Shown: positions 38,356-64,000, counted from the first letter of the stretch. The stretch: DNA of 64,000 nt from an uncultured Clostridiaceae bacterium (GCA_947169155.1 CAMVON010000006.1:987-64986); one strand, 5' to 3'. Notes: a model not told the origin generated them from the sequence alone. Program-made: numbers and translations.

Positions 38356-38393
38356 ATAATGGAATTATAGGGAGAAAAGGAAGTTTGAGTTTT

Positions 38394-40370
38394 ATGGCAA
38401 AAGATTCTAGAAAAAAATCCGGATTTTTTAAATCTTTATTAACCAAAATAATTATAATTGCTTTTATTCAAATAATATGTGCAATTGTATCAATAATATT
38501 CCCATTATCGCTTTTCATAGACATTGCGATAATTGTTTTATTATGCCTTTTTGCCATAGGAATGTGTATTGTTGAGTTTAAAAATAAAAAATTCAGACTT
38601 GGCGAAGTATCTAAAAATGTAGATGTAATTTTTAAAGATTCTTTAAATCTTATAGATATTCCAATGGCAATTGTTGGAACACAAGGAAATATTATTTGGA
38701 AAAATGCATCTGCAGATAATTTATTAACAGATGATTATATTGAAAAATCTGCAATTAAACTTGAAGGACTAAAAAAGAAAAATGTCAATTCTAGTATTCT
38801 TGAGGAAAGTCCAGATGGAGATATATATAATGTAATTTGTAATCCAATTAGATTTGAAGATTTTGATTGCTTACTTGTATCATTTATAGATAAAACTTAT
38901 GAGACAAGTTTAAAACAAAGCTTAGAAGATTCTAGAGTAGCAATTGGTATGCTTTTTGTAGATAATTATGAAGAAACATTACAAGGTTTAGATGAAATGC
39001 AAAAAGCAGAAGTTAAATCTGTATTAACTAAAGAAATTAGAAGCTGGGCAAGAGAAAATCAAGGGGTTCTTGCAAGATTAGATAAAGATAAATATGTTGT
39101 ATTTGTTGAGAAAAAATACATAGATAAGATGGAAGAAAATTCTTTTGATATCTTAGAAAGAGTTAGAAACTGTACTAATTTAACTAAACTTCCAATAACT
39201 GTTTCTCTTGGTGTTTCTTATTCAGAAGATACACTTGAAGATAGATACAATGCTGGTAGTTCTGCATTAGACATTGCTCTAGGTAGAGGTGGTGACCAAG
39301 CAGTTGTTAAAAAGGATAAAAAATATGATTTCTTTGGTGGTTCAAATGCAGGACTTGAAAAAATAAGTAAAGTTAAAGCAAGAGCGGTGGCTCAAGCTTT
39401 TAAAGAGCTGGTTGAAAAATCTGAAAACGTTTATGTTTGTGGACATAGAAATTCAGATTTAGACTGTATTGGTGCTGCAATAGGTGTTGCAAGAATTGCT
39501 AGATATTTAGGTAAAGAAGTAAAAATTGTTGTAGATGGAAAGCCAACTGCTTCAACTCAAGGAGTAATAGAAAAAATTCAATATAGTGAAGAATATAAAG
39601 ATACATTTGTAACATATGCAGATATTAGAAATGATGATTTTACTAATAGTTTACTTGTTGTAGTAGATACACATAAACAATCATATTTAGTAGAACCAGA
39701 TTTGTTAGATCATATAGAAAATGTTGCTGTAATAGACCATCATAGACGTGGTCCAGAATTTATAGAAAAAGCAGTGCTAACATATCATGAAATATATGCT
39801 TCAAGTGCTACAGAACTTGTTGCAGAATTAATAATGTTACTTGAAGGAATAGAATTATCATCTAATGAAGCAGAATGTATGTATGCAGGACTTGTTGTAG
39901 ATACTAAAAACTTCATGTTCAAAACTGGTGTTAGAACATTTGAAGTAGCTGCTTTCCTTAAAAAATTTGGTATAGATGTAGCCGAAATTAAGCTTCTATT
40001 CCAAAATAATTTTGATACTTATGTAACAAAAGTAGATATAGTTAAAAATGCTAAATTCTATAAAGATAACATTGCTATCTCTATGACAGATGCACAGCAC
40101 AAAGATATGCCAATTATTGCAGCACAGGCTGCAGATGAACTATTATCAATTTCAGGTATTCAAGCATCATTTGTGCTATGTATGGTAGATGGTGTTGTAA
40201 TGATATCTGGTAGATCAATGGGAGATATAAACGTACAAACTATTCTAGAAAAAATAGGTGGTGGCGGACACTTAACATTTGCTGGAGCCCAAATTGCAGG
40301 TGTTGAGTTAGAAGAGGCTAAATCTAGACTTTTAGATAGTATAGATGAATATTTAGAGGATAATGAATAA
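38394..40370 (+). CDS. gdpP: Cyclic-di-AMP phosphodiesterase GdpP (YybT): 2 TM + PAS + degenerate GGDEF + DHH/DHHA1
   Basis: N-terminal TM helices; a DHH motif block (VCGHRNSDLDCIGAAIG...VVVDTHKQSY...IDHHRRGPEF) and C-terminal DHHA1 (GGGGH). Conserved position upstream of rplI and dnaB. The start is ATG at 38394; the ORF-track start at 38385 is a TTG. Confidence 0.88.
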   Translation: MAKDSRKKSGFFKSLLTKIIIIAFIQIICAIVSIIFPLSLFIDIAIIVLLCLFAIGMCIVEFKNKKFRLGEVSKNVDVIFKDSLNLIDIPMAIVGTQGNIIWKNASADNLLTDDYIEKSAIKLEGLKKKNVNSSILEESPDGDIYNVICNPIRFEDFDCLLVSFIDKTYETSLKQSLEDSRVAIGMLFVDNYEETLQGLDEMQKAEVKSVLTKEIRSWARENQGVLARLDKDKYVVFVEKKYIDKMEENSFDILERVRNCTNLTKLPITVSLGVSYSEDTLEDRYNAGSSALDIALGRGGDQAVVKKDKKYDFFGGSNAGLEKISKVKARAVAQAFKELVEKSENVYVCGHRNSDLDCIGAAIGVARIARYLGKEVKIVVDGKPTASTQGVIEKIQYSEEYKDTFVTYADIRNDDFTNSLLVVVDTHKQSYLVEPDLLDHIENVAVIDHHRRGPEFIEKAVLTYHEIYASSATELVAELIMLLEGIELSSNEAECMYAGLVVDTKNFMFKTGVRTFEVAAFLKKFGIDVAEIKLLFQNNFDTYVTKVDIVKNAKFYKDNIAISMTDAQHKDMPIIAAQAADELLSISGIQASFVLCMVDGVVMISGRSMGDINVQTILEKIGGGGHLTFAGAQIAGVELEEAKSRLLDSIDEYLEDNE

Positions 40371-51912: not shown

Positions 51913-53502
51913 ATGGAAAAGAAAACTGGCAAAAATAAAGAAAATGTTATAGGTAAAATATTAAGAAGACCTATAGTTAGAATAGCTTTATTATTAGTAA
52001 TTATAATTATTGGAATTATAATAATTGCAAATAATGCTGGTTCTAAAAAAGCTACTTCTAAGTTAGTAGGATATCAAAGATTAATTAATGTTACAGATGA
52101 TACTTATACATTTTTAGATTTAAATGGAAAAGTTAGAAAGTATTCTGGATTTAATTCAATGAATGATTTTTATTATGATGTAACTTGTGCATCAAGAATA
52201 AATGAGAAAACTGGCGTTTCTGAAGTGGCTGTTATAGATAAAAATAAAAAACAAGTAATTAAATTTGGAGAATATGAAAATATTATTCAAGTTGTAGGTG
52301 GAAAATATTACAAAGTTCAAAAAGATGGAAAATATGGAGTTGTAACTAATTCTGGAAAAATTATAATTCAACCAGAATATGATTATATTTCTATGACTAC
52401 TGTTCAAGAAGCAAGTGAAATTGTTTTTGAATGTCAAAAAGATGGAGTATATACATTTGTTAATGAACAAGGTAAAGCTTTCTTTGAAACTTCTGTAGCA
52501 CTACATAGTATTTCATATGCAAACAAATTTAATTCAGATTATGATACAATAGTTTATATCTCTGTAGATGGGCAAAAAAATTATTTTGATCTAGTTACAG
52601 GTGAAAGACTATTTGAAGGAATTGAAAATGTAGATATTTCATATAACATTTTGAAAACAGATGATAAAATTACTTTCTATGATAAAAAAGCAAAAGTTAA
52701 AACAGAAATAGATACTTCAGGAGATTATACAGTAGATAGCAGAGTATATTTTAGAAAATATGTTGTTATTGAACAAAGAAATACAAGCTCTGGTACTAGA
52801 GAGAATACTTATACAGTATATGATAGTGACTTTAAAAAAGTAGTTGAATCAAGCAATAGAATTAATCCAGTACAAGATGTAAATGGAGATGTATATTTCA
52901 TAATTAACGAATCAGATTGTGTTAGAATAGTTAATGAAAATAAAAAAGAAGTTAAAGTTCAAGGATATGAGTTTAATGGAAATGAAATTAGTAATCTTCA
53001 ATACTTAGTATTAAATCCAAGCAATAATTTCTCTAAACATGAAGTTTATGATTTCAAAGGAAAGAAAATTGCTGAAGATGTAACAGAATATTCTCAAAGA
53101 GGTTTTGGATTAATTATTTCTAGATATATTAATGATACTTTAACTAGAACTTTATTGCTTGGTAAAAATGTATCAATTGATTTAGTTCCAGAAGATGGAA
53201 TTATTCCAACTAATGACTATATTATTATTGAAAATGCTAATGCAAATTATATTAGCGTAGTAAATAAAGATGGAAAAGTTGTTATAGATAAAGCATCAGG
53301 CTCTAGACTTTTTGATAATAACAAATATATTGCTGTACAAGATGGAGAAAATGTAAATCTATATGATATGGCAACAGGTAAACAAACACTTACTTATGCA
53401 CAAACAGACTATGTAAATAAAGATGATACAGTAAGTATGGTAGAACTAAAGACTGGTTATTATACTTTTGGTGGTAAATTAGTTCTTGAAAAAGTACAAT
53501 AA
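51913..53502 (+). CDS. Membrane-anchored WG-repeat (KWG) containing protein
   Basis: N-terminal TM and a repeated motif of the form ...GKYYKVQKDGKYGVVTNSGKIIIQPEYDYI... (WG_beta_rep-like). Confidence 0.55.
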   Translation: MEKKTGKNKENVIGKILRRPIVRIALLLVIIIIGIIIIANNAGSKKATSKLVGYQRLINVTDDTYTFLDLNGKVRKYSGFNSMNDFYYDVTCASRINEKTGVSEVAVIDKNKKQVIKFGEYENIIQVVGGKYYKVQKDGKYGVVTNSGKIIIQPEYDYISMTTVQEASEIVFECQKDGVYTFVNEQGKAFFETSVALHSISYANKFNSDYDTIVYISVDGQKNYFDLVTGERLFEGIENVDISYNILKTDDKITFYDKKAKVKTEIDTSGDYTVDSRVYFRKYVVIEQRNTSSGTRENTYTVYDSDFKKVVESSNRINPVQDVNGDVYFIINESDCVRIVNENKKEVKVQGYEFNGNEISNLQYLVLNPSNNFSKHEVYDFKGKKIAEDVTEYSQRGFGLIISRYINDTLTRTLLLGKNVSIDLVPEDGIIPTNDYIIIENANANYISVVNKDGKVVIDKASGSRLFDNNKYIAVQDGENVNLYDMATGKQTLTYAQTDYVNKDDTVSMVELKTGYYTFGGKLVLEKVQ

Positions 53503-58099: not shown

Positions 58100-58147
58100 T
58101 GTTATATTATTTAAATTCTATTAATACAATATAATGAGGTGGATTGT

Positions 58148-59350
58148 GTGAATAAATCATTTAAAATTCTTACAGTATTTGCTTTGTTATTTGTATTATT
58201 TTTTTACTCAAATTTTATATATGCAAATGGTTATTTATACGATTTAATACAGAGAAGTGATGTTAGTAGTATAGCGACAAATGCAAATCCTTCATTTAGT
58301 TTTGAATCAGAAGCGCAAGTTTTGATGGAAGTGGAAACTGGAAATATACTATATGCAAATAATGCAGAAGAAAAAATGCTTCCAGCGTCTGTTACTAAAC
58401 TTATGACCCTGCTTTTGCTTATGGAAAAAATAGACTCGGGAACAATTAGTTATTCAGATACAATAATTTGCAGTAAAAATGCATCTGAGATGGGTGGCTC
58501 ACAGATTTGGTTTGAAGAGGGTGAATCATTAACTGTAGATGAAGCTTTAAAGGCGATTTGTGTGGTTAGTGCAAATGATGTTACTGTTGCTGTTGCAGAA
58601 AAAATTGGTGGTAGTGAAGAGAACTTTGTTCAAATGATGAATGAAAAAGCAAAGTCTCTTGGAATGAATAATACTCATTATATAAATTCACATGGAATAG
58701 ATGAAGACGGACATTATACTTGTGCATATGATCAAGCACTTCTTGCAAGAGAATTAATAACTAAACATCCAAATATTTTAAAGTATACTTCAATTTGGAT
58801 GGATACTTTAAGAAATGGAGAAACTGAGCTTACAAGTACTAATAAATTAATTAGATTTTACGATGGCGCAACAGGGCTGAAAACTGGTTATACTTCTCTT
58901 GCAATGTATAATTTGGTTGGAAGTGCAACACGTGGTAATACAACTTTTATTTCAGTTATTATGAAAGCGCCTAGCTCAGATGTAAGACTTAAAGAAACAA
59001 AAACATTGTTAGATTATGGTTTTTCAAATTTCGAAACAAAGAAACTTGTATCGCAAAATAATGATTTAGATGAAATTGATGTAGATAAAAATATAACTGA
59101 AAAATTAAAAACTAAAATTTGTGAGGATGTCTATGCGCTATGTGAAAAAGGTTCACAGCCAAATTTTGAAACAAATATTGTTTATAATGAAAAGATTTGT
59201 GCACCGTTATATGAGGGTGATGTTGTTGGTAAAATTCAAATACTTAATAACGGAGAGTTGTTTGATGAAAAAAATATAATTTGCACAAATGATGTTTTAA
59301 AGTCTAATTTTTTAGATTATTTTAAATATCTTTTTTATAACTTTTTTTAA
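58148..59350 (+). CDS. D-alanyl-D-alanine carboxypeptidase (low-molecular-weight PBP, DacF/DacB-like)
   Basis: Signal peptide, then the SxxK motif (LPASVTKLMT), SxN and KTG (GLKTGYT). The start is GTG at 58148 (RBS gaggtgg) or GTG at 58139. Confidence 0.85.
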   Translation: MNKSFKILTVFALLFVLFFYSNFIYANGYLYDLIQRSDVSSIATNANPSFSFESEAQVLMEVETGNILYANNAEEKMLPASVTKLMTLLLLMEKIDSGTISYSDTIICSKNASEMGGSQIWFEEGESLTVDEALKAICVVSANDVTVAVAEKIGGSEENFVQMMNEKAKSLGMNNTHYINSHGIDEDGHYTCAYDQALLARELITKHPNILKYTSIWMDTLRNGETELTSTNKLIRFYDGATGLKTGYTSLAMYNLVGSATRGNTTFISVIMKAPSSDVRLKETKTLLDYGFSNFETKKLVSQNNDLDEIDVDKNITEKLKTKICEDVYALCEKGSQPNFETNIVYNEKICAPLYEGDVVGKIQILNNGELFDEKNIICTNDVLKSNFLDYFKYLFYNFF

Positions 59351-59382
59351 AACTCAGTAATTAATTTTACTGAGTTTTTTTC
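59349..59382 (+). terminator. Rho-independent terminator (aaactcagtaa-ttaatt-ttactgagttt + T-run)
   Basis: An 11-bp perfect stem. Confidence 0.85.
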
Positions 59383-59565
59383 ATTCTTAAAACATAAGCA
59401 AAACAAACCTATTTCGACAATATTACATTTATATTTCAATTCAAAATACGACCTTAGTTTTGTTTTTTCTCGGTTGATTTTTTATTATATTATATATATA
59501 ATTAAAAGAGAAATTAACTTAAAAATTAAGTATTATTAAATATTTTTTATGGAGGTTGATAACAA

Positions 59566-60597
59566 ATGATAGGAATGAGTCAAATCAAAAAGAAAATGAT
59601 ACAAGGTATTGTTATTGGTGCAAGTGCTGGTATTGTTCTAGCTATTGCTGTAGGAGTTTTTTCTTTTTTCACAATTAGATCTTATAGCAATGGTACAAAT
59701 AGCAATTATATTAAAAAATATACAACACCAGTAGTTGTTCTAAAGAGGGATATTGTACAAGGTGAAGTAATAACTTCAGATATGATAGATACTGTAAATG
59801 TTAATAATAGTACAGTTCCAACTGGTACAGTTACTGCTGCTTCTATTGTTGGACTTACAGCTAAATACAATATTGCTGCAAAAGTACCTATTACAGAAAA
59901 TATGGTAAGTAGTGAAGTAGTTGCTGCTGACGTTAGAGATGTTGAAATTAATACAGTTCTTATGCCTTCAGATTTAGTAGAAGGAGATACTGTTGATGTA
60001 AGAATAATGTTCCCTAATGGTACAGACTATATTGTACTTGCACAAAAAACTATAGATAAAATTTATGATACAACTTTCTGGCTAAAATTATCTGAAGATG
60101 AAATTGAATTATTAAACAGTTCAATTGTTGATTCTTTCTTAAACAGTGGTTCTAAATTATATGCTTTAAGATATACAGATAGTGATTCTCAAGTGAAATC
60201 TTCAGAAGATATTGAAAGTGAAACTAAAGGATATCTTGAAACAGTTATTGAAAAAGATTGGGAAAAAATTGTGGATATGGATGCTACAGAAGGAGCAAAC
60301 AAATTATACGAGTACATCTATAAATATAAAAACTTTGCAAATGCATCTACTAAAACAACACAAAACTATCAACCAAATACATATGTTATGACTGCTATGA
60401 AATCTAACCAATATTTACTAAAAAATGCAACTTCAGAACTTGCAAGATTAAATGCTGAGACAAGATCTACTATTGAAAGTGGAATTAAAAATTATCAATC
60501 TCAAAATAGTGGAAGTTATGAAAATATAGTAACTGGAGCACAACAATCTATTATTACACAACAAACACAAAGAGAAAATTTACTTGAAGGTAAATAA
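59566..60597 (+). CDS. cpaB: Flp/Tad pilus assembly protein CpaB/RcpC-like (SAF domain)
   Basis: N-terminal TM, then TPVVVLKRDIVQGEVITSDMI (SAF/CpaB N-terminal domain); RBS ggagg. Confidence 0.7.
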   Translation: MIGMSQIKKKMIQGIVIGASAGIVLAIAVGVFSFFTIRSYSNGTNSNYIKKYTTPVVVLKRDIVQGEVITSDMIDTVNVNNSTVPTGTVTAASIVGLTAKYNIAAKVPITENMVSSEVVAADVRDVEINTVLMPSDLVEGDTVDVRIMFPNGTDYIVLAQKTIDKIYDTTFWLKLSEDEIELLNSSIVDSFLNSGSKLYALRYTDSDSQVKSSEDIESETKGYLETVIEKDWEKIVDMDATEGANKLYEYIYKYKNFANASTKTTQNYQPNTYVMTAMKSNQYLLKNATSELARLNAETRSTIESGIKNYQSQNSGSYENIVTGAQQSIITQQTQRENLLEGK

Positions 60598-60625
60598 TAG
60601 AATTTAAAAAAGAGGGGGAGATAAA

Positions 60626-61333
60626 ATGCAAGCATTAGGAATGTACGGGTATGTAGATAAATATGATTTCGTTATTACTGTAGCTAAAACATTAGGCATA
60701 ATGGGAAAATCAGTACTAGTAATAGATGCTACATCAGATGAAAAGTATAGATACTTAATTCCTGCTATAGATAAAAGCCAATGCTATTTAACTCAATACA
60801 GTGAAATAGACTTTGCTGTAGGTTTTACATCATATGAACAATTACAATCTTATCTTGTTGAAAGAGGAATAGATATTCAAAGATATAGCTATGTAATTCT
60901 TGATGTAGAAAATTATGAAGGCTATAGAAAATATAAAGGCTTAGAAATAAATAAAGCGTATATGTTTATAGATACAAATGTTGTATCTGTAGCAAGAAAT
61001 GATGAATTGGTTCGAGTTATGCGAGGAGAAAATCCAGAAAAAGAACTTTTATTTACAAAGGTACTATATAGAGCTTATATGTCTAGAGCAGCTAATAATT
61101 ACTTGGAGGAGAAAATTGGAAATTATGCTGTAAAGTGGACTGATGAAGTTTACGAAATAAGTATGGATGAACAAGATGTTATGGTTAATATCGATTCTCA
61201 GTATAGCGGAATGGTAGAAATTAAAAGGCATACAAAACCTTTTGTATTATACTTATGCGAATTTGTATCTAAGATTTTAGGAGATACAAGCTCAAAAGAA
61301 ATACTAAAAGAGATTAAAAGGAGGAAGAACTAA
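60626..61333 (+). CDS. ParA/MinD-fold (CpaE/TadZ-like) protein with non-canonical Walker A
   Basis: AKTLGIMGKSVLVIDAT resembles a deviant Walker A carrying an extra residue; a SIMIBI-fold beta-strand/P-loop pattern is present; RBS agaggggg. Confidence 0.45.
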   Translation: MQALGMYGYVDKYDFVITVAKTLGIMGKSVLVIDATSDEKYRYLIPAIDKSQCYLTQYSEIDFAVGFTSYEQLQSYLVERGIDIQRYSYVILDVENYEGYRKYKGLEINKAYMFIDTNVVSVARNDELVRVMRGENPEKELLFTKVLYRAYMSRAANNYLEEKIGNYAVKWTDEVYEISMDEQDVMVNIDSQYSGMVEIKRHTKPFVLYLCEFVSKILGDTSSKEILKEIKRRKN

Positions 61334-62145
61334 TGGCTAAGATTGTATTTTGGAGTCCAGAAGAAGGTAAATCAGGATGCACTCATGTTGCTATTGCTGT
61401 TAGCTCGCTTCTTGGAATAACACATAAAACATCATCATTACTTATAGATGCAAATTCAAATGCAAAAAAGATTGCATCATCTTTTACAATGTATGATGAT
61501 TTGGTAAATGCTAATAGTTTTAATGATACTAATATGGGAATGAATGCAATTATGAGACTAATTAAATCTAATAAATTGTCACCAGATATCATTCAAAACT
61601 ATTCAAAACCAGTTCTAAAAGGAAGATTAGATATTCTTTATAGTGCAATAGCAAATACAAATACTGAAGAGAGAGAAAATTTAATAAGTATGCCTCTAAT
61701 AGCTAAGAATGCAGATGAGGTTTATGATTTAGTTTTAATTGACCTTCCAAAAACTATGACAGATGATAGTGCAATTAGAGTTATGGAACAAGCAGATATT
61801 TTAGTTTGTGTTGTTCCACAAGAAATTGAAAAACTATCTAATTTTATTAAGAAAATAGAGTTTATTGATAGCATAAAAGATAAAACAAAGATATATGTAA
61901 TTGGAGATTATGAACCAAATTCAAAATATAATTTGTTTAATTTAAAACTAAAATTTAAAATACCAGATCCTTGTTTGGTATTACCACATAATTATTTATT
62001 TGCTGATGCATGTAATGATGGAAATGTGTTAGATTTCTTATATAAAAATCTAAATGCTCAAGCAGGAGACTACAATGGTAACTTTATGCTAAAAGCAACA
62101 GAAATTGTAGAGGAAATAGTAAAGATATTAAAAATAAAAGAGTAA
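61333..62145 (+). CDS. ParA/MinD-fold (CpaE/TadZ-like) protein with degenerate Walker A
   Basis: KIVFWSPEEGKSGCTHVAIAVS stands where MinD has SGKGGVGKTT; a Walker B-like segment YDLVLIDLP is present. The start overlaps the upstream stop. Confidence 0.45.
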   Translation: MAKIVFWSPEEGKSGCTHVAIAVSSLLGITHKTSSLLIDANSNAKKIASSFTMYDDLVNANSFNDTNMGMNAIMRLIKSNKLSPDIIQNYSKPVLKGRLDILYSAIANTNTEERENLISMPLIAKNADEVYDLVLIDLPKTMTDDSAIRVMEQADILVCVVPQEIEKLSNFIKKIEFIDSIKDKTKIYVIGDYEPNSKYNLFNLKLKFKIPDPCLVLPHNYLFADACNDGNVLDFLYKNLNAQAGDYNGNFMLKATEIVEEIVKILKIKE

Positions 62146-62155
62146 GAGGGGTGAT

Positions 62156-64000
62156 ATGATGTCAGTTGCATTTGTATTTAATATTTTGTTAATACTATTA
62201 CTACTTGCATTTGTAGCTGCATTTTTCTACTATAGGGTAAAAAAATCTGGTGCAGATCAAATGGTAGAAGATAGTTTAACAAGAGAAAAGACAACATATA
62301 GTCTTTCTACTATGCAAAATTATATTAAAAAACAATTTGATGAAATCACAAGAATGAACTTATATGATTTGGCTCTTTCAGAAGAAGAATTTGAAAGAAG
62401 AAAAAATGTTAAATACGAATTAAAGAGAGCTTTAAAAGGTGCTGGATATGCAGATTCAAATGATAAGAAATACGTTAAATCTCTTATGTTTGATTTACTA
62501 AAAAATGATTATAAGGTAAATAACTTTAACATTAACCATGCAATACCTTTTAATAACTTTAATGAGTTAACATCTCAGGATAAATTTGAAATAATAATGC
62601 ATATGTATAAGAAAACATATAAGGCAGAAGCCTTAACAAAGATAATTACTAAGTATGCACTAGATTATCCTAAATATGAGTTTGATGAAACAGTTCCATC
62701 ATATGTAATAACTCCAAGAGAGATAGATGAGATATTTACAGATGAAGTTTCACCAGAAACATTATCTTTTGAAGATAAACTTGAAATAGTAGTTCAAAGA
62801 ATTTACCAAGAATATAAAGGATACTCAGTAGTAGATGACATTAGAGATATGAATATCGATGGTGTATCTGGTGGTGTATCTGGTATTCCACCATCATTCT
62901 TAGATCAATTAAGTGACATGGATGATTATTTACAACAAATGAATGAAAGTAAAATACCAATGTCATACGATTCAGTATGGATATTCTATAAAGGTAAAGC
63001 AATGTACTTATCATTCTTATCTTTTGGAAGTGAAGCAGAATTAAAGAGAGTATGTCAAAATATATATAAATATAATAATCCAGGACAATTATCTGAATCT
63101 GTAGGTTACAAAATAAATGAAATGAAAGATGGTTCCAGAGTTGTTGTTTTAAGACCAAACTTCTCAGAATCATGGGCGTTCTTTGTAAGAAAGTTTGCTC
63201 CACCTACATTAATTTCTCCTGAACAATTGCTTATTCATGAGAATAAAGAAAATGTTATTGAATTATTAAAATATTTAATTAGAGGAGCACGAGTTACAGC
63301 AATCACTGGTGAGCAAGGTTGTGGTAAAACTACATTGCTAATGGCGATTATGAAATTCTTGTATCCAACTATTACTATTCGTGTACAAGAAACTGCATTC
63401 GAATTACACTTAAGAAAAATTTATCCATATCATAACATCTTATCTTTAAGAGAAACAGATACAATAACTGGACAAGAAGGTCTAGATGTTCAAAAGAAAA
63501 CAGATGGTGGTGTTAATATCTTAGGAGAGGTTGCAACTGACCCAGTTGCTGCATGGATGATTCAAATGGCCCAAGTTGCTTCTAAGTTTACACTATTTAC
63601 GCATCACGCTAAGACTTTTCCTAACTTAATAACTTCTCTTAGAAACTCATTATTAAAGATTGGAATGTTTAATAGTGAAAATGTTGCTGAAGTTCAAGTT
63701 GTTCAAGTTATAAACTTTGATATTCACTTAAAGAGAGCTGTTGATGGTACAAGATATATTGAAAGAATAACAGAATGTATCCCACTTGAACAAACTTATA
63801 CATACAATAATGACTATAGAAAAATGAAGGATACAAACCAAAAATTAGATAAATTTATGGATAATGCTGTAGAGTATTTCCAACATATGACTCAAGCACA
63901 AAATTATACATATAGAAATATAGTTGAATTTGTAGATGGAAAATATGTATTTACAAATCCAATAAGTGAAGAAAACATTAAAGCTATGAGAGATAATATG
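62156..64000 (+). CDS. CpaF/TadA-type secretion ATPase (VirB11 superfamily) with ~300-aa N-terminal extension beginning with a TM helix; 3' truncated by window edge
   Basis: Open frame from ATG 62156 (RBS aagagggg) to the window end, not in the ORF track because it has no stop. Contains Walker A TGEQGCGKTTLL, Asp box, Walker B and His box FTHHAKT. The N-terminal MMSVAFVFNILLILLLLAFVAAFFYY is a TM helix. Confidence 0.7.
   Translation, partial: MMSVAFVFNILLILLLLAFVAAFFYYRVKKSGADQMVEDSLTREKTTYSLSTMQNYIKKQFDEITRMNLYDLALSEEEFERRKNVKYELKRALKGAGYADSNDKKYVKSLMFDLLKNDYKVNNFNINHAIPFNNFNELTSQDKFEIIMHMYKKTYKAEALTKIITKYALDYPKYEFDETVPSYVITPREIDEIFTDEVSPETLSFEDKLEIVVQRIYQEYKGYSVVDDIRDMNIDGVSGGVSGIPPSFLDQLSDMDDYLQQMNESKIPMSYDSVWIFYKGKAMYLSFLSFGSEAELKRVCQNIYKYNNPGQLSESVGYKINEMKDGSRVVVLRPNFSESWAFFVRKFAPPTLISPEQLLIHENKENVIELLKYLIRGARVTAITGEQGCGKTTLLMAIMKFLYPTITIRVQETAFELHLRKIYPYHNILSLRETDTITGQEGLDVQKKTDGGVNILGEVATDPVAAWMIQMAQVASKFTLFTHHAKTFPNLITSLRNSLLKIGMFNSENVAEVQVVQVINFDIHLKRAVDGTRYIERITECIPLEQTYTYNNDYRKMKDTNQKLDKFMDNAVEYFQHMTQAQNYTYRNIVEFVDGKYVFTNPISEENIKAMRDNM

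What the first reader, a model, noticed from the sequence alone, without database searches (positions are those of the whole stretch)
59566..64000. Atypical Tad/Flp-like locus: CpaB, two ParA/MinD-fold proteins with degenerate Walker A, and a CpaF/TadA ATPase carrying an N-terminal membrane anchor
Four translationally coupled genes, each with a good RBS, follow a 215-nt AT-rich leader that contains an exact Spo0A-box heptamer (TTCGACA at 59413-59419).

The first gene is a clear CpaB/RcpC (TM plus SAF domain). The next two have the SIMIBI/ParA fold layout, but their P-loops are AKTLGIMGKS and EEGKSGCTHV rather than KGGxGK[ST]. They are probably non-hydrolysing TadZ/CpaE-like organisers.

The fourth is an unmistakable VirB11-family ATPase (Walker A GEQGCGKTT, His box FTHHAKT). 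It carries about 300 extra N-terminal residues that start with a transmembrane helix, whereas CpaF/TadA are normally soluble. No pilin, TadB/C or prepilin peptidase genes are visible before the window ends.

A Tad-type machine with a membrane-tethered ATPase and twin pseudo-ATPases, possibly Spo0A-controlled in a spore-former, is not a configuration I recognise as described.
Basis: partly seen in the sequence, partly recalled or inferred. Interest (0 to 1): 0.55.

Follow-up and report, generated by a model that had tools for sequence, protein, structure and literature searches.

The report
Published TANB77 gut-bacterium Tad-like pilus cluster
This is the start of a highly divergent Tad-like pilus operon that nearly all species of the uncultured gut order TANB77 carry; a 2024 paper already described it, so the locus is real and odd in its details but not a new discovery.

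Summary
The four genes are real and conserved. The order CpaB-like / ParA-fold B / ParA-fold C / ATPase / polytopic platform recurs in all 80 related loci fetched, and at least 589 species genomes encode a relative of the ATPase.

Confirmed points:
- The ATPase is closest to CpaF among solved structures.
- Its N-terminal membrane helix is present in 61 of 61 diverged family representatives, so it is not a start-codon artefact.
- Downstream, outside the window, lie a 684-aa platform protein and at least 7 pilin-like genes.

- The P-loop named for gene B (AKTLGIMGKS) is really helix 1 plus strand 2. The true loop is GYVDKYD.
- The Spo0A heptamer occurs at chance frequency and is not conserved.
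- Only one gene junction actually overlaps.
- The configuration has been described. Kim et al. 2024 (Nat Commun, PMC11680825) annotated the same cluster: CpaB, TadZ-like, CpaE-like, TadA with 1 TMH, fused TadC/TadB, and pilin-like genes.

Still unexplained: non-Flp pilin N-termini (MDNAQKA|IMIGVG), no nearby prepilin peptidase, and the role of the tethered ATPase. Interest is modest.

The parts
59349..59378 (+). Intrinsic-terminator-like hairpin ending the upstream DD-carboxypeptidase gene. It marks the pilus operon as a separate transcription unit.
   Evidence: 12-bp stem followed by a T run
59474..59502 (+). Sigma-70/SigA-type promoter candidate, TTGATT-17-TATAAT
   Evidence: 10 of 12 consensus matches. 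The TTGATT / GATATACT block is conserved upstream of cpaB in related species.
59566..60597 (+). CpaB/RcpC-like protein of 343 aa: N-terminal membrane helix (residues 14-32), SAF domain (residues 55-114), and a poorly conserved C-terminal extension
   Evidence: Pfam SAF 1.5e-9. TIGR03177 scores 34.5 bits, below its cutoff of 71. It is the first gene of the conserved order in 74 of the 77 loci whose DNA reaches it.
60626..61333 (+). Gene B, 235 aa: single-domain MinD/ParA-fold protein with a degenerate, shortened Walker A loop (GYVDKYD, residues 8-14; family consensus GxxDKTD). No Pfam family.
60644..60667 (+). True P-loop-equivalent of gene B (YGYVDKYD)
61333..62145 (+). Gene C, 270 aa: single-domain ParA/MinD-fold protein. 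The Walker lysine is replaced by Cys16 (EEGKSGCTH). Its start overlaps the gene B stop (TAATG).
   Evidence: AlphaFold2 pLDDT 92. Foldseek ParA 3ea0 2.8e-10, MinD and Soj with TM about 0.7. Other clades of the family keep TGKT.
62156..64000 (+). CpaF/TadA-like secretion ATPase: 615 of 632 aa, cut by the window end
   Evidence: Family profile against PDB: CpaF 1.2e-27, FlaI 1.1e-15. Pfam T2SSE in 48 of 61 representatives.
62162..62233 (+). N-terminal membrane anchor of the ATPase (residues 3-26), followed by basic residues (cytoplasmic side)
   Evidence: Present in 61 of 61 full-length representatives at 31-49% identity.
63308..63334 (+). Walker A of the ATPase, GEQGCGKTT (residues 385-393)
   Evidence: G390 and K391 invariant in the family
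63380..63406 (+). Asp/Glu-box region, RVQETAFEL (E412 and E416 invariant)
63512..63532 (+). Walker B region, VNILGEV (E458 invariant)
63596..63616 (+). His box, FTHHAKT (H484 invariant)

Best explanation
The window holds the 5' part of the pilus gene cluster that is conserved across the uncultured gut Clostridia order TANB77. It is a very divergent, monoderm, Tad-like (type IVc / archaeal-Epd-related) type IV filament machine.

Inferred working model:
1. A SigA-type promoter drives one long operon.
2. A hexameric CpaF-like ATPase retains all catalytic motifs. It is held at the membrane by its own N-terminal helix and powers a polytopic platform protein. That platform is a single 684-aa polypeptide here and two genes in some species.
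3. The platform inserts or extracts pilin-like subunits that carry a short conserved leader and a hydrophobic N-terminal helix (MDNAQKA-IMIGVGLF...). One subunit has a LamG lectin-like domain, a likely adhesin.
4. The two small ParA/MinD-fold proteins stand in the position of TadZ/CpaE. With their crippled P-loops they probably act as nucleotide-independent or poorly hydrolysing scaffolds or localisers for the ATPase.
5. The membrane-anchored SAF-domain CpaB-like protein probably forms the extracytoplasmic collar or alignment element.

Shown here: gene content, conservation, folds of genes B and C, ATPase family and motifs, conservation of the anchor, and downstream gene content. Inferred: filament formation, adhesion function, scaffold role, and leader cleavage.
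For: - Gene order cpaB-B-C-ATPase-platform in all 80 related loci, followed by pilin-like genes.
- At least 589 species genomes, all uncultured gut Clostridia MAGs by their record titles, encode a relative. One is Ca. Merdicola, which is classified in TANB77/CAG-508.
- Kim et al. 2024 describe a cluster with the same order and near-identical sizes (358/231/280/640/693 aa against 343/235/270/632/684 aa here). They report the same TMH pattern and CpaB/TadZ/CpaE/TadA/TadC+TadB structural matches.
- ATPase profile against PDB: CpaF 1.2e-27, FlaI 1.1e-15, with PilT, VirB11, GspE and PilB weaker. The Walker A residues G390/K391, the Walker B glutamate E458, H484 of the His box and three arginines (R298, R328, R345) are invariant. 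T2SSE matches 48 of 61 representatives.
- Membrane anchor in 61 of 61 representatives.
- Gene B and gene C models (pLDDT 85.7 and 92) hit FleN, FlhG, MinD, ParA and Soj.
- Downstream 684-aa polytopic protein and 7 or more proteins with an N-terminal hydrophobic helix and a conserved leader. LamG domain in the 519-aa one.
- Conserved promoter block.
Against: - No pilus has been seen. The organisms are uncultured, and Kim et al. also only infer a pilus.
- The platform shows no sequence match to T2SSF/TadB/TadC in Pfam or PDB, and its two halves are not detectably homologous. Its assignment rests on position, topology and the published Foldseek result.
- No Flp-type or classical type IV prepilin motif was found.
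- No prepilin peptidase candidate lies in the 64-kb window or within 10 kb of the cluster in 80 loci.
- Curated HMM cutoffs for CpaB and TadA are not reached by the window proteins.
- Assignment of the window organism to TANB77 is indirect.
Confidence: 0.78

Rival explanations
1. A canonical Tad/Flp pilus locus: an ordinary member of the Tad family that only looks odd because the genome is AT-rich and fast-evolving.
For: CpaF is the best solved relative. The order is TadZ-like, then ATPase, then platform, as in tad loci (Denise et al. 2019). A CpaB-like SAF protein is present.
Against: - No Flp pilin: no G/xxxxEY motif and no small ORF. The pilin-like proteins are 130-250 aa with a different leader.
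- The TadZ-like proteins lack the N-terminal receiver-like domain.
- The platform is one polypeptide, not recognised by T2SSF models.
- The ATPase is membrane-anchored.
- Curated family cutoffs are missed by large margins.
Confidence: 0.1
2. A type IV filament-like machine used for something other than adhesion: a pseudopilus for protein secretion, or for DNA uptake or exchange, in these reduced-genome gut bacteria.
For: Many minor-pilin-like genes and several large proteins with N-terminal anchors follow the platform. Type IV filament machines have repeatedly been re-used for secretion and DNA uptake (Denise et al. 2019).
Against: No DNA-receptor or channel genes (ComEA/ComEC-like) and no obvious secreted cargo were recognised in the cluster. 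The LamG-domain subunit and tandemly duplicated major-pilin-like genes fit an exposed adhesive fibre better.
Confidence: 0.1
3. A Spo0A-controlled, sporulation-associated machine.
For: One TTCGACA heptamer lies in the leader. In this genome the sporulation genes yabP and yqfD lie 4.5 kb upstream.
Against: - The heptamer count matches chance.
- The heptamer is absent from the leader in 68 of 73 related loci and is replaced by other sequence in the closest species.
- yabP/yqfD are neighbours in only 2 of 51 loci.
- A conserved SigA-type promoter is present instead.
Confidence: 0.02

Closest known systems
TANB77 pilus gene cluster (Kim et al. 2024, Nat Commun 15:10726, PMC11680825; reference genes 927-938 of CAG-245 sp000435175)
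   Same: - Same gene order and near-identical protein sizes for the five machinery genes.
- Same transmembrane-helix pattern: one helix in the CpaB-like protein and one in the ATPase.
- Same structural assignments, which I reproduced independently here for the two ParA-fold proteins.
- A following block of pilin-like genes, each with one N-terminal helix.
- A homologous cluster occurs in a Merdicola (TANB77/CAG-508) genome (L075).
   Different: - The window comes from a different species or clade: the proteins are about 25-60% identical to that clade.
- The pilin-like gene set differs. Here it is 165, 165, 519 (LamG), 134, 154, 330, 392, 437 and more than 900 aa.
- Gene C has lost the Walker lysine that the CAG-245-like clade keeps.
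- Membership of the window organism in TANB77 is inferred, not computed.
Tad/Flp (type IVc) pili of Caulobacter, Aggregatibacter and Bifidobacterium breve
   Same: - A CpaF/TadA-type ATPase with all catalytic motifs.
- ParA/MinD-fold accessory proteins directly upstream of the ATPase.
- A platform gene directly downstream.
- A CpaB/RcpC-like SAF protein.
- The prepilin peptidase may be encoded elsewhere, as in B. breve (Pelicic 2019, PMC6916266).
   Different: - The ATPase has its own membrane helix.
- There are two short TadZ-like proteins without the receiver-like N-domain and with degenerate P-loops.
- The platform is a single polypeptide, reported as TadC-like then TadB-like, which is the reverse of the tadB-tadC gene order.
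- The subunits are large, lack the Flp G/xxxxEY signature and carry an MDNAQKA/MENASKA leader.
- There are no secretin, TadD or TadG genes.
Archaeal type IV pili and archaellum machinery (FlaI/FlaJ, Epd pili)
   Same: - FlaI is the second-best solved relative of the ATPase profile.
- A single long polytopic platform protein resembles FlaJ-type two-domain platforms (Denise et al. 2019).
- The short leader ends in K-A before a hydrophobic helix rich in G, I, V and A, with no Glu at +5. This resembles archaeal class III signal peptides (my recollection of those sequences; not tested here).
   Different: The system is bacterial, and CpaF matches much better than FlaI (99.7 against 60.3 bits). No FlaH/KaiC-like, FlaX or FlaCDE genes are present. 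A CpaB-like SAF protein is present.
MinD/FlhG/FleN/ParA (SIMIBI deviant Walker A ATPases) and TadZ of Eubacterium rectale (PDB 3fkq)
   Different: - There is no signature lysine and no intact GKT in the window proteins.
- Gene B's loop is shortened, with an invariant Asp before the Lys.
- There is no amphipathic C-terminal membrane-targeting helix evidence and no receiver-like domain.

Membership tests
TANB77 pilus gene cluster (Kim et al. 2024) | Five machinery genes in the order CpaB-like (1 TMH), TadZ-like, CpaE-like, TadA-like (1 TMH), fused polytopic TadC/TadB, with sizes of about 358/231/280/640/693 aa | tested here: met
   Window plus L001 give 343/235/270/632/684 aa with the same order and TMH pattern. 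The order is conserved in 80 loci. The published table was read.
TANB77 pilus gene cluster (Kim et al. 2024) | A downstream block of pilin-like genes, each with a short cytoplasmic N-terminus and one membrane helix | tested here: met
   L001 14010-21092 holds eight ORFs, each with an N-terminal hydrophobic helix. The leader is conserved across loci.
TANB77 pilus gene cluster (Kim et al. 2024) | The host genome belongs to GTDB order TANB77 | not testable with these tools
   The link is indirect. The relatives carry record titles of uncultured gut Clostridia MAGs. One locus is Ca. Merdicola, which PMC13106387 places in TANB77/CAG-508. Window GC is 29%. No GTDB-Tk classification was possible.
Tad/Flp type IVc pilus system | CpaF/TadA-type secretion ATPase (T2SSE domain; Walker A, Asp box, Walker B, His box) | tested here: met
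   Family profile against PDB: CpaF 1.2e-27. T2SSE in 48 of 61 representatives. Motifs invariant. Scored alone, the window protein misses the curated cutoffs: T2SSE 18.4 against 24.9 bits, TIGR03819 25.7 against 373.
Tad/Flp type IVc pilus system | Two paralogous platform proteins TadB and TadC, each with one T2SSF domain | tested here: inconclusive
   There is one 684-aa polytopic protein, split into about 435 + 255 aa in about 12 loci. No T2SSF hit in Pfam for 22 members, no PDB sequence hit, and the halves are not detectably homologous. Only Kim et al.'s Foldseek result supports TadC/TadB similarity.
Tad/Flp type IVc pilus system | Short Flp pilin with the G/xxxxEY processing motif | tested here: not met
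   No such motif in six-frame translations of L001 or window 58-64 kb. There is no room for a small ORF in the leader. The subunits are 130-250 aa with an MDNAQKA/MENASKA leader.
Tad/Flp type IVc pilus system | Dedicated prepilin peptidase (TadV/CpaA, peptidase A24) | tested here: inconclusive
   No polytopic ORF with a GxGDxK-type motif in the window or the 83 loci. The polytopic window ORFs are CvpA, SecY, SecDF, DgkA and others. No conserved polytopic neighbour was seen. It may be encoded elsewhere in the genome, as in B. breve.
TadZ/CpaE | ParA/MinD-type ATPase domain preceded by a receiver-like N-terminal domain | tested here: not met
   The fold of the ATPase-like domain is met. Both proteins are single-domain (235 and 270 aa; models). 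TIGR03815 scores 18.4 bits against a cutoff of 154. The solved TadZ 3fkq ranks only 27th for gene B.
ParA/MinD deviant Walker A ATPases | KGGxGK[ST] loop with a signature lysine and a catalytic lysine | tested here: not met
   Gene B has GYVDKYD: no signature Lys, Asp in place of Gly, and a shortened loop. Gene C has EEGKSGCTH, with Cys in place of the Walker Lys.
CpaB/RcpC | N-terminal membrane anchor, SAF domain, and a full-length match to TIGR03177 | tested here: inconclusive
   Membrane helix residues 14-32. SAF 1.5e-9. TIGR03177 scores 34.5 bits against a cutoff of 71 and covers only profile positions 4-100 of 262. The family profile hits only the FlgA SAF domain in PDB.
Spo0A regulon | 0A boxes that are enriched or conserved in the promoter region | tested here: not met
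   4 observed against 2.4 expected in the window. A box is present upstream of cpaB in 5 of 73 loci and is not conserved at the orthologous position.

The most novel reading that the evidence does not exclude
The TANB77 system may not be a degenerate bacterial Tad locus. It may be a separate, deep branch of the archaeal-Epd/Tad clade. Three features fit that reading. It keeps an unsplit FlaJ-like two-domain platform, reported as TadC-like then TadB-like, which is the archaeal domain order. It keeps archaeal-style leader peptides ending in K-A with no Glu at +5. It has also solved the problem of holding the ATPase on the platform by giving the ATPase its own membrane helix, with two nucleotide-dead ParA-fold proteins as static scaffolds. 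That would amount to a new subtype of type IV filament machine, possibly with its own unrecognised peptidase or with no leader cleavage at all.
Probability: 0.18. Interest if true: 0.6.

Novelty: already known. Interest (0 to 1): 0.3.

Why it matters
The cluster is nearly universal in TANB77, an uncultured human gut order. Kim et al. [quoted passage not shown] Correct annotation of the machinery therefore has practical value.

For pilus biology, Pelicic 2019 asked how the ATPase-platform sub-complex of type IVc machines is held together in monoderms. This system offers a natural variant with the ATPase tethered by its own helix, two crippled ParA-fold partners and non-Flp subunits. These are details within an already published system, not a new kind of system.

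Tried and rejected
- **Exact look-up of gene C:** not on record. I got the downstream context through the full-length ATPase P0002 instead.
- **The search for related loci with the 61-sequence alignment:** failed because the alignment was too diverse. I repeated it with 14 sequences.
- **Platform protein:** no Pfam T2SSF hit, no PDB sequence hit, and no internal repeat by hhalign.
- **Prepilin peptidase:** a motif scan of the window and 83 loci found nothing. Pfam on the polytopic window ORFs gave CvpA and others. No conserved polytopic neighbour was found.
- **Flp and classical prepilin motifs:** none.
- **Spo0A box:** rejected on count and conservation. The sporulation neighbourhood is not conserved.
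- **Gene B against gene C by hhalign:** collinear but weak (E=0.004, probability 8.5%), so paralogy is only suggestive.
- **afdb50 fold library:** unavailable.
- **Supplementary files of Kim et al.:** not held, so I could not compare sequences with their genes 927-938 directly.
- **The listing of cluster members:** gave no useful organism names beyond Clostridium sp. CAG:921.
- **Direct GTDB placement of the window:** not possible with these tools.

Full report
**Observation**

The region holds four same-strand ORFs:
- 59566-60597, 343 aa
- 60626-61333, 235 aa
- 61333-62145, 270 aa
- 62156 to the window end

The last protein is 632 aa in identical database copies, so only 17 residues are missing. 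Each ORF has a strong Shine-Dalgarno sequence.

The upstream DD-carboxypeptidase gene ends in a terminator-like hairpin at 59349-59378. A TTGATT-17-TATAAT promoter candidate lies at 59474-59502. The 215-nt leader is 19% GC, against 29% for the window.

Only the gene B/gene C junction overlaps (TAATG). The other two gaps are 28 and 10 nt.

**The Spo0A lead**

TTCGACA occurs 4 times in the window against 2.4 expected, and 23 of 100 shuffles reach 4. Only 5 of 73 related loci have the heptamer on either strand within 300 nt upstream of cpaB. In the closest species the orthologous position reads differently.

The -35/-10 block (GGTTGATT...GATATACT) is conserved instead. The sporulation genes yabP and yqfD are neighbours of the cluster in only 2 of 51 loci. 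I reject the Spo0A idea.

**What follows the window**

The identical ATPase on an ENA contig (L001) gave 10 kb of downstream sequence. It holds:
- a 684-aa protein with six or more hydrophobic segments;
- eight ORFs of 134-519 aa, each with a single N-terminal hydrophobic helix, one of them carrying a LamG lectin-like domain;
- the start of a protein of more than 900 aa.

Almost none of these has a Pfam family.

**Distribution and conservation**

A scan of one genome per species found at least 589 genomes encoding a relative of the ATPase. The record titles of the 80 loci fetched all name uncultured Clostridia-type MAGs; those that name a host are from human, rabbit, chicken or ruminant gut. 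In those 80 loci the order cpaB-B-C-ATPase-platform is invariant and is followed by variable pilin-like genes. In about a dozen loci the platform is split into genes of about 435 and 255 aa.

The ATPase family is narrow. It has 1175 clusters at E<=1e-3 and 339 at E<=1e-30 among 1.84 billion representatives. Gene B has 837 relatives and gene C has 367 relatives in 5.8 billion sequences. These relatives are almost all unnamed and without Pfam hits. A few gene C relatives carry ParA-type Pfam hits or the name 'MinD-like ATPase'.

**The ATPase**

Scored alone, the window protein is below curated thresholds: T2SSE E=9e-4 and TIGR03819 25.7 bits against 373. Its best solved relative is nevertheless Caulobacter CpaF (8.8e-9, residues 274-551).

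A profile of 61 diverged family members gives:
- CpaF 1.2e-27
- FlaI 1.1e-15
- an archaeal GspE-like ATPase 3e-13
- PilT, VirB11, GspE and PilB weaker still

Pfam T2SSE matches 48 of the 61 members. The invariant residues are G390 and K391 of the Walker A loop, E412 and E416, the Walker B glutamate E458, H484 of the His box, and the arginines R298, R328 and R345. The enzyme therefore looks active.

The N-terminal hydrophobic helix (residues 4-22, followed by basic residues) sits directly behind the ribosome-binding site. The next plausible start is codon 36, and it has no Shine-Dalgarno sequence. The helix is present in all 61 full-length representatives at 31-49% identity. It is real and a trait of the family.

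Caulobacter CpaF already has about 170 residues before the alignable core.

**The two middle proteins**

AlphaFold2 models built with family alignments are confident: gene B pLDDT 85.7 and gene C pLDDT 92.0.

For gene B:
- Foldseek finds FlhG, FleN, MinD, ParA and NifH, with E down to 2.6e-7.

For gene C, Foldseek finds a ParA-family ATPase (3ea0, 2.8e-10), archaeal MinD and Soj, with TM of about 0.7-0.78. Profile-to-sequence searches agree weakly.

Both proteins are single-domain and lack the receiver-like N-domain of TadZ/CpaE.

The alignments locate the P-loop equivalents. In gene B it is residues 8-14, GYVDKYD (family consensus GxxDKTD, with G8, D11, K12 and D14 invariant). It is not AKTLGIMGKS, which aligns with the end of helix 1 and strand 2 of MinD. 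In gene C it is EEGKSGCTH, where Cys16 replaces the Walker lysine. Other clades of the same family still have TGKT.

It remains untested.

**CpaB-like protein**

A membrane helix and a SAF domain are clear. The match to the CpaB equivalog model is partial and below its cutoff. The family profile hits only the SAF domain of FlgA in PDB.

**Pilin-like proteins**

Across all clades these proteins start with a conserved M-[DE]-N-A-[QS]-K-A-[IL]-x-[IM]-[GA]-x-[GA], followed by about 20 hydrophobic residues. Examples are MDNAQKAIMIGVGLFITLL and MENASKALIIAGAILLAIL.

Neither the Flp motif (G/xxxxEY) nor the classical prepilin motif (G/FTLxE) occurs. I found no prepilin peptidase candidate in the window or within 10 kb of any cluster. 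It may be encoded elsewhere, as tadV is in Bifidobacterium breve (Pelicic 2019).

**Comparison with the literature**

Kim et al. 2024 (PMC11680825) report a cluster of 10-14 genes carried by 122 of 129 TANB77 species and nearly exclusive to that order. Their Table 1 lists:
- 358 aa, CpaB, 1 TMH
- 231 aa, TadZ (structural match)
- 280 aa, CpaE (structural match)
- 640 aa, TadA/CpaF, 1 TMH
- 693 aa, 8 TMH, TadC-like first half and TadB-like second half
- seven pilin-like proteins

This is the same architecture as here. One of my related loci is from Ca. Merdicola, which is classified in TANB77/CAG-508. I conclude that the window carries this published cluster in another TANB77 species. The taxonomic step is inferred, because I could not run a genome classification or obtain their sequences.

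**Mechanism**

The best-supported reading is a monoderm Tad-like type IV filament machine. Its parts would be a tethered CpaF-like motor, a single-chain (or split) platform, two ParA-fold scaffolds, a CpaB-like extracytoplasmic element and a set of large subunits including a lectin-domain adhesin. Filament formation, adhesion and leader processing are inferred.

Denise et al. 2019 derive Tad from an archaeal Epd-like system. [quoted passage not shown] Kim et al. report that same domain order for the fused protein. Together with the archaeal-looking leaders, this leaves open a more novel reading: a separate deep branch of that clade. I could not test this.

**Verdict**

The novelty claim is wrong: the cluster and its unusual components are already in the literature, although none of the peculiarities has been studied mechanistically.

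Noticed in passing
L001 14010-19761 (downstream of the window) and all related loci: The pilin-like proteins share a conserved, non-Flp and non-classical N-terminus: M-[DE]-N-A-[QS]-K-A-[IL]-x-[IM]-[GA]-x-[GA] followed by a hydrophobic helix. From memory it resembles archaeal class III signal peptides. No cognate peptidase lies nearby.
   Followed up: partly
L012, L017, L019, L020 (first genes after the platform): Two to four tandem paralogues of the first pilin-like gene have identical first ~30 residues and divergent remainders. This suggests a variable major subunit.
   Followed up: no
window 59430-59465 and the orthologous leaders of L004-L010: A conserved block (ATTACATTT.TGTTTCA..AAAACACGACCTT) lies just upstream of the conserved -35/-10 promoter. 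It is a possible operator for an unknown regulator.
   Followed up: no
window 58139-59350: An S11 DD-carboxypeptidase gene (PBP5-like) lies directly upstream on the same strand. It occupies that position in 19 of 68 related loci and occurs within 10 kb in roughly half. This may be plain synteny, or a link to peptidoglycan remodelling.
   Followed up: partly
L044, L060, L069, L072-L074 and others: The platform gene is split into two ORFs of about 435 and about 255 aa in about 12 of 80 loci. This could be a natural fission or a frameshift or assembly artefact.
   Followed up: no
window 61360-61389 compared with L039, L052, L057, L062, L083: Gene C keeps an intact GKT Walker motif (TGKT[LM]S) in the CAG-245-like clade but has Cys, Ser, Asn or Gln in the window's clade. 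Loss of the catalytic lysine is therefore lineage-specific.
   Followed up: partly
L001 15091-16650 and 17576-18568: The 519-aa (LamG domain) and 330-aa proteins share a paralogous N-terminal ~75 residues (hydrophobic helix, then ...P(V/L)Y..(Y/F)E(K/R)(E/Q)DDISY...). Short 170-180-aa versions of this module are conserved in the distant clade.
   Followed up: no
window 38385-40370 and 51913-53502: Unrelated neighbours: a GdpP-type c-di-AMP phosphodiesterase (GGDEF-like, DHH and DHHA1 domains), and a 529-aa protein with only a marginal WG-repeat hit.
   Followed up: no
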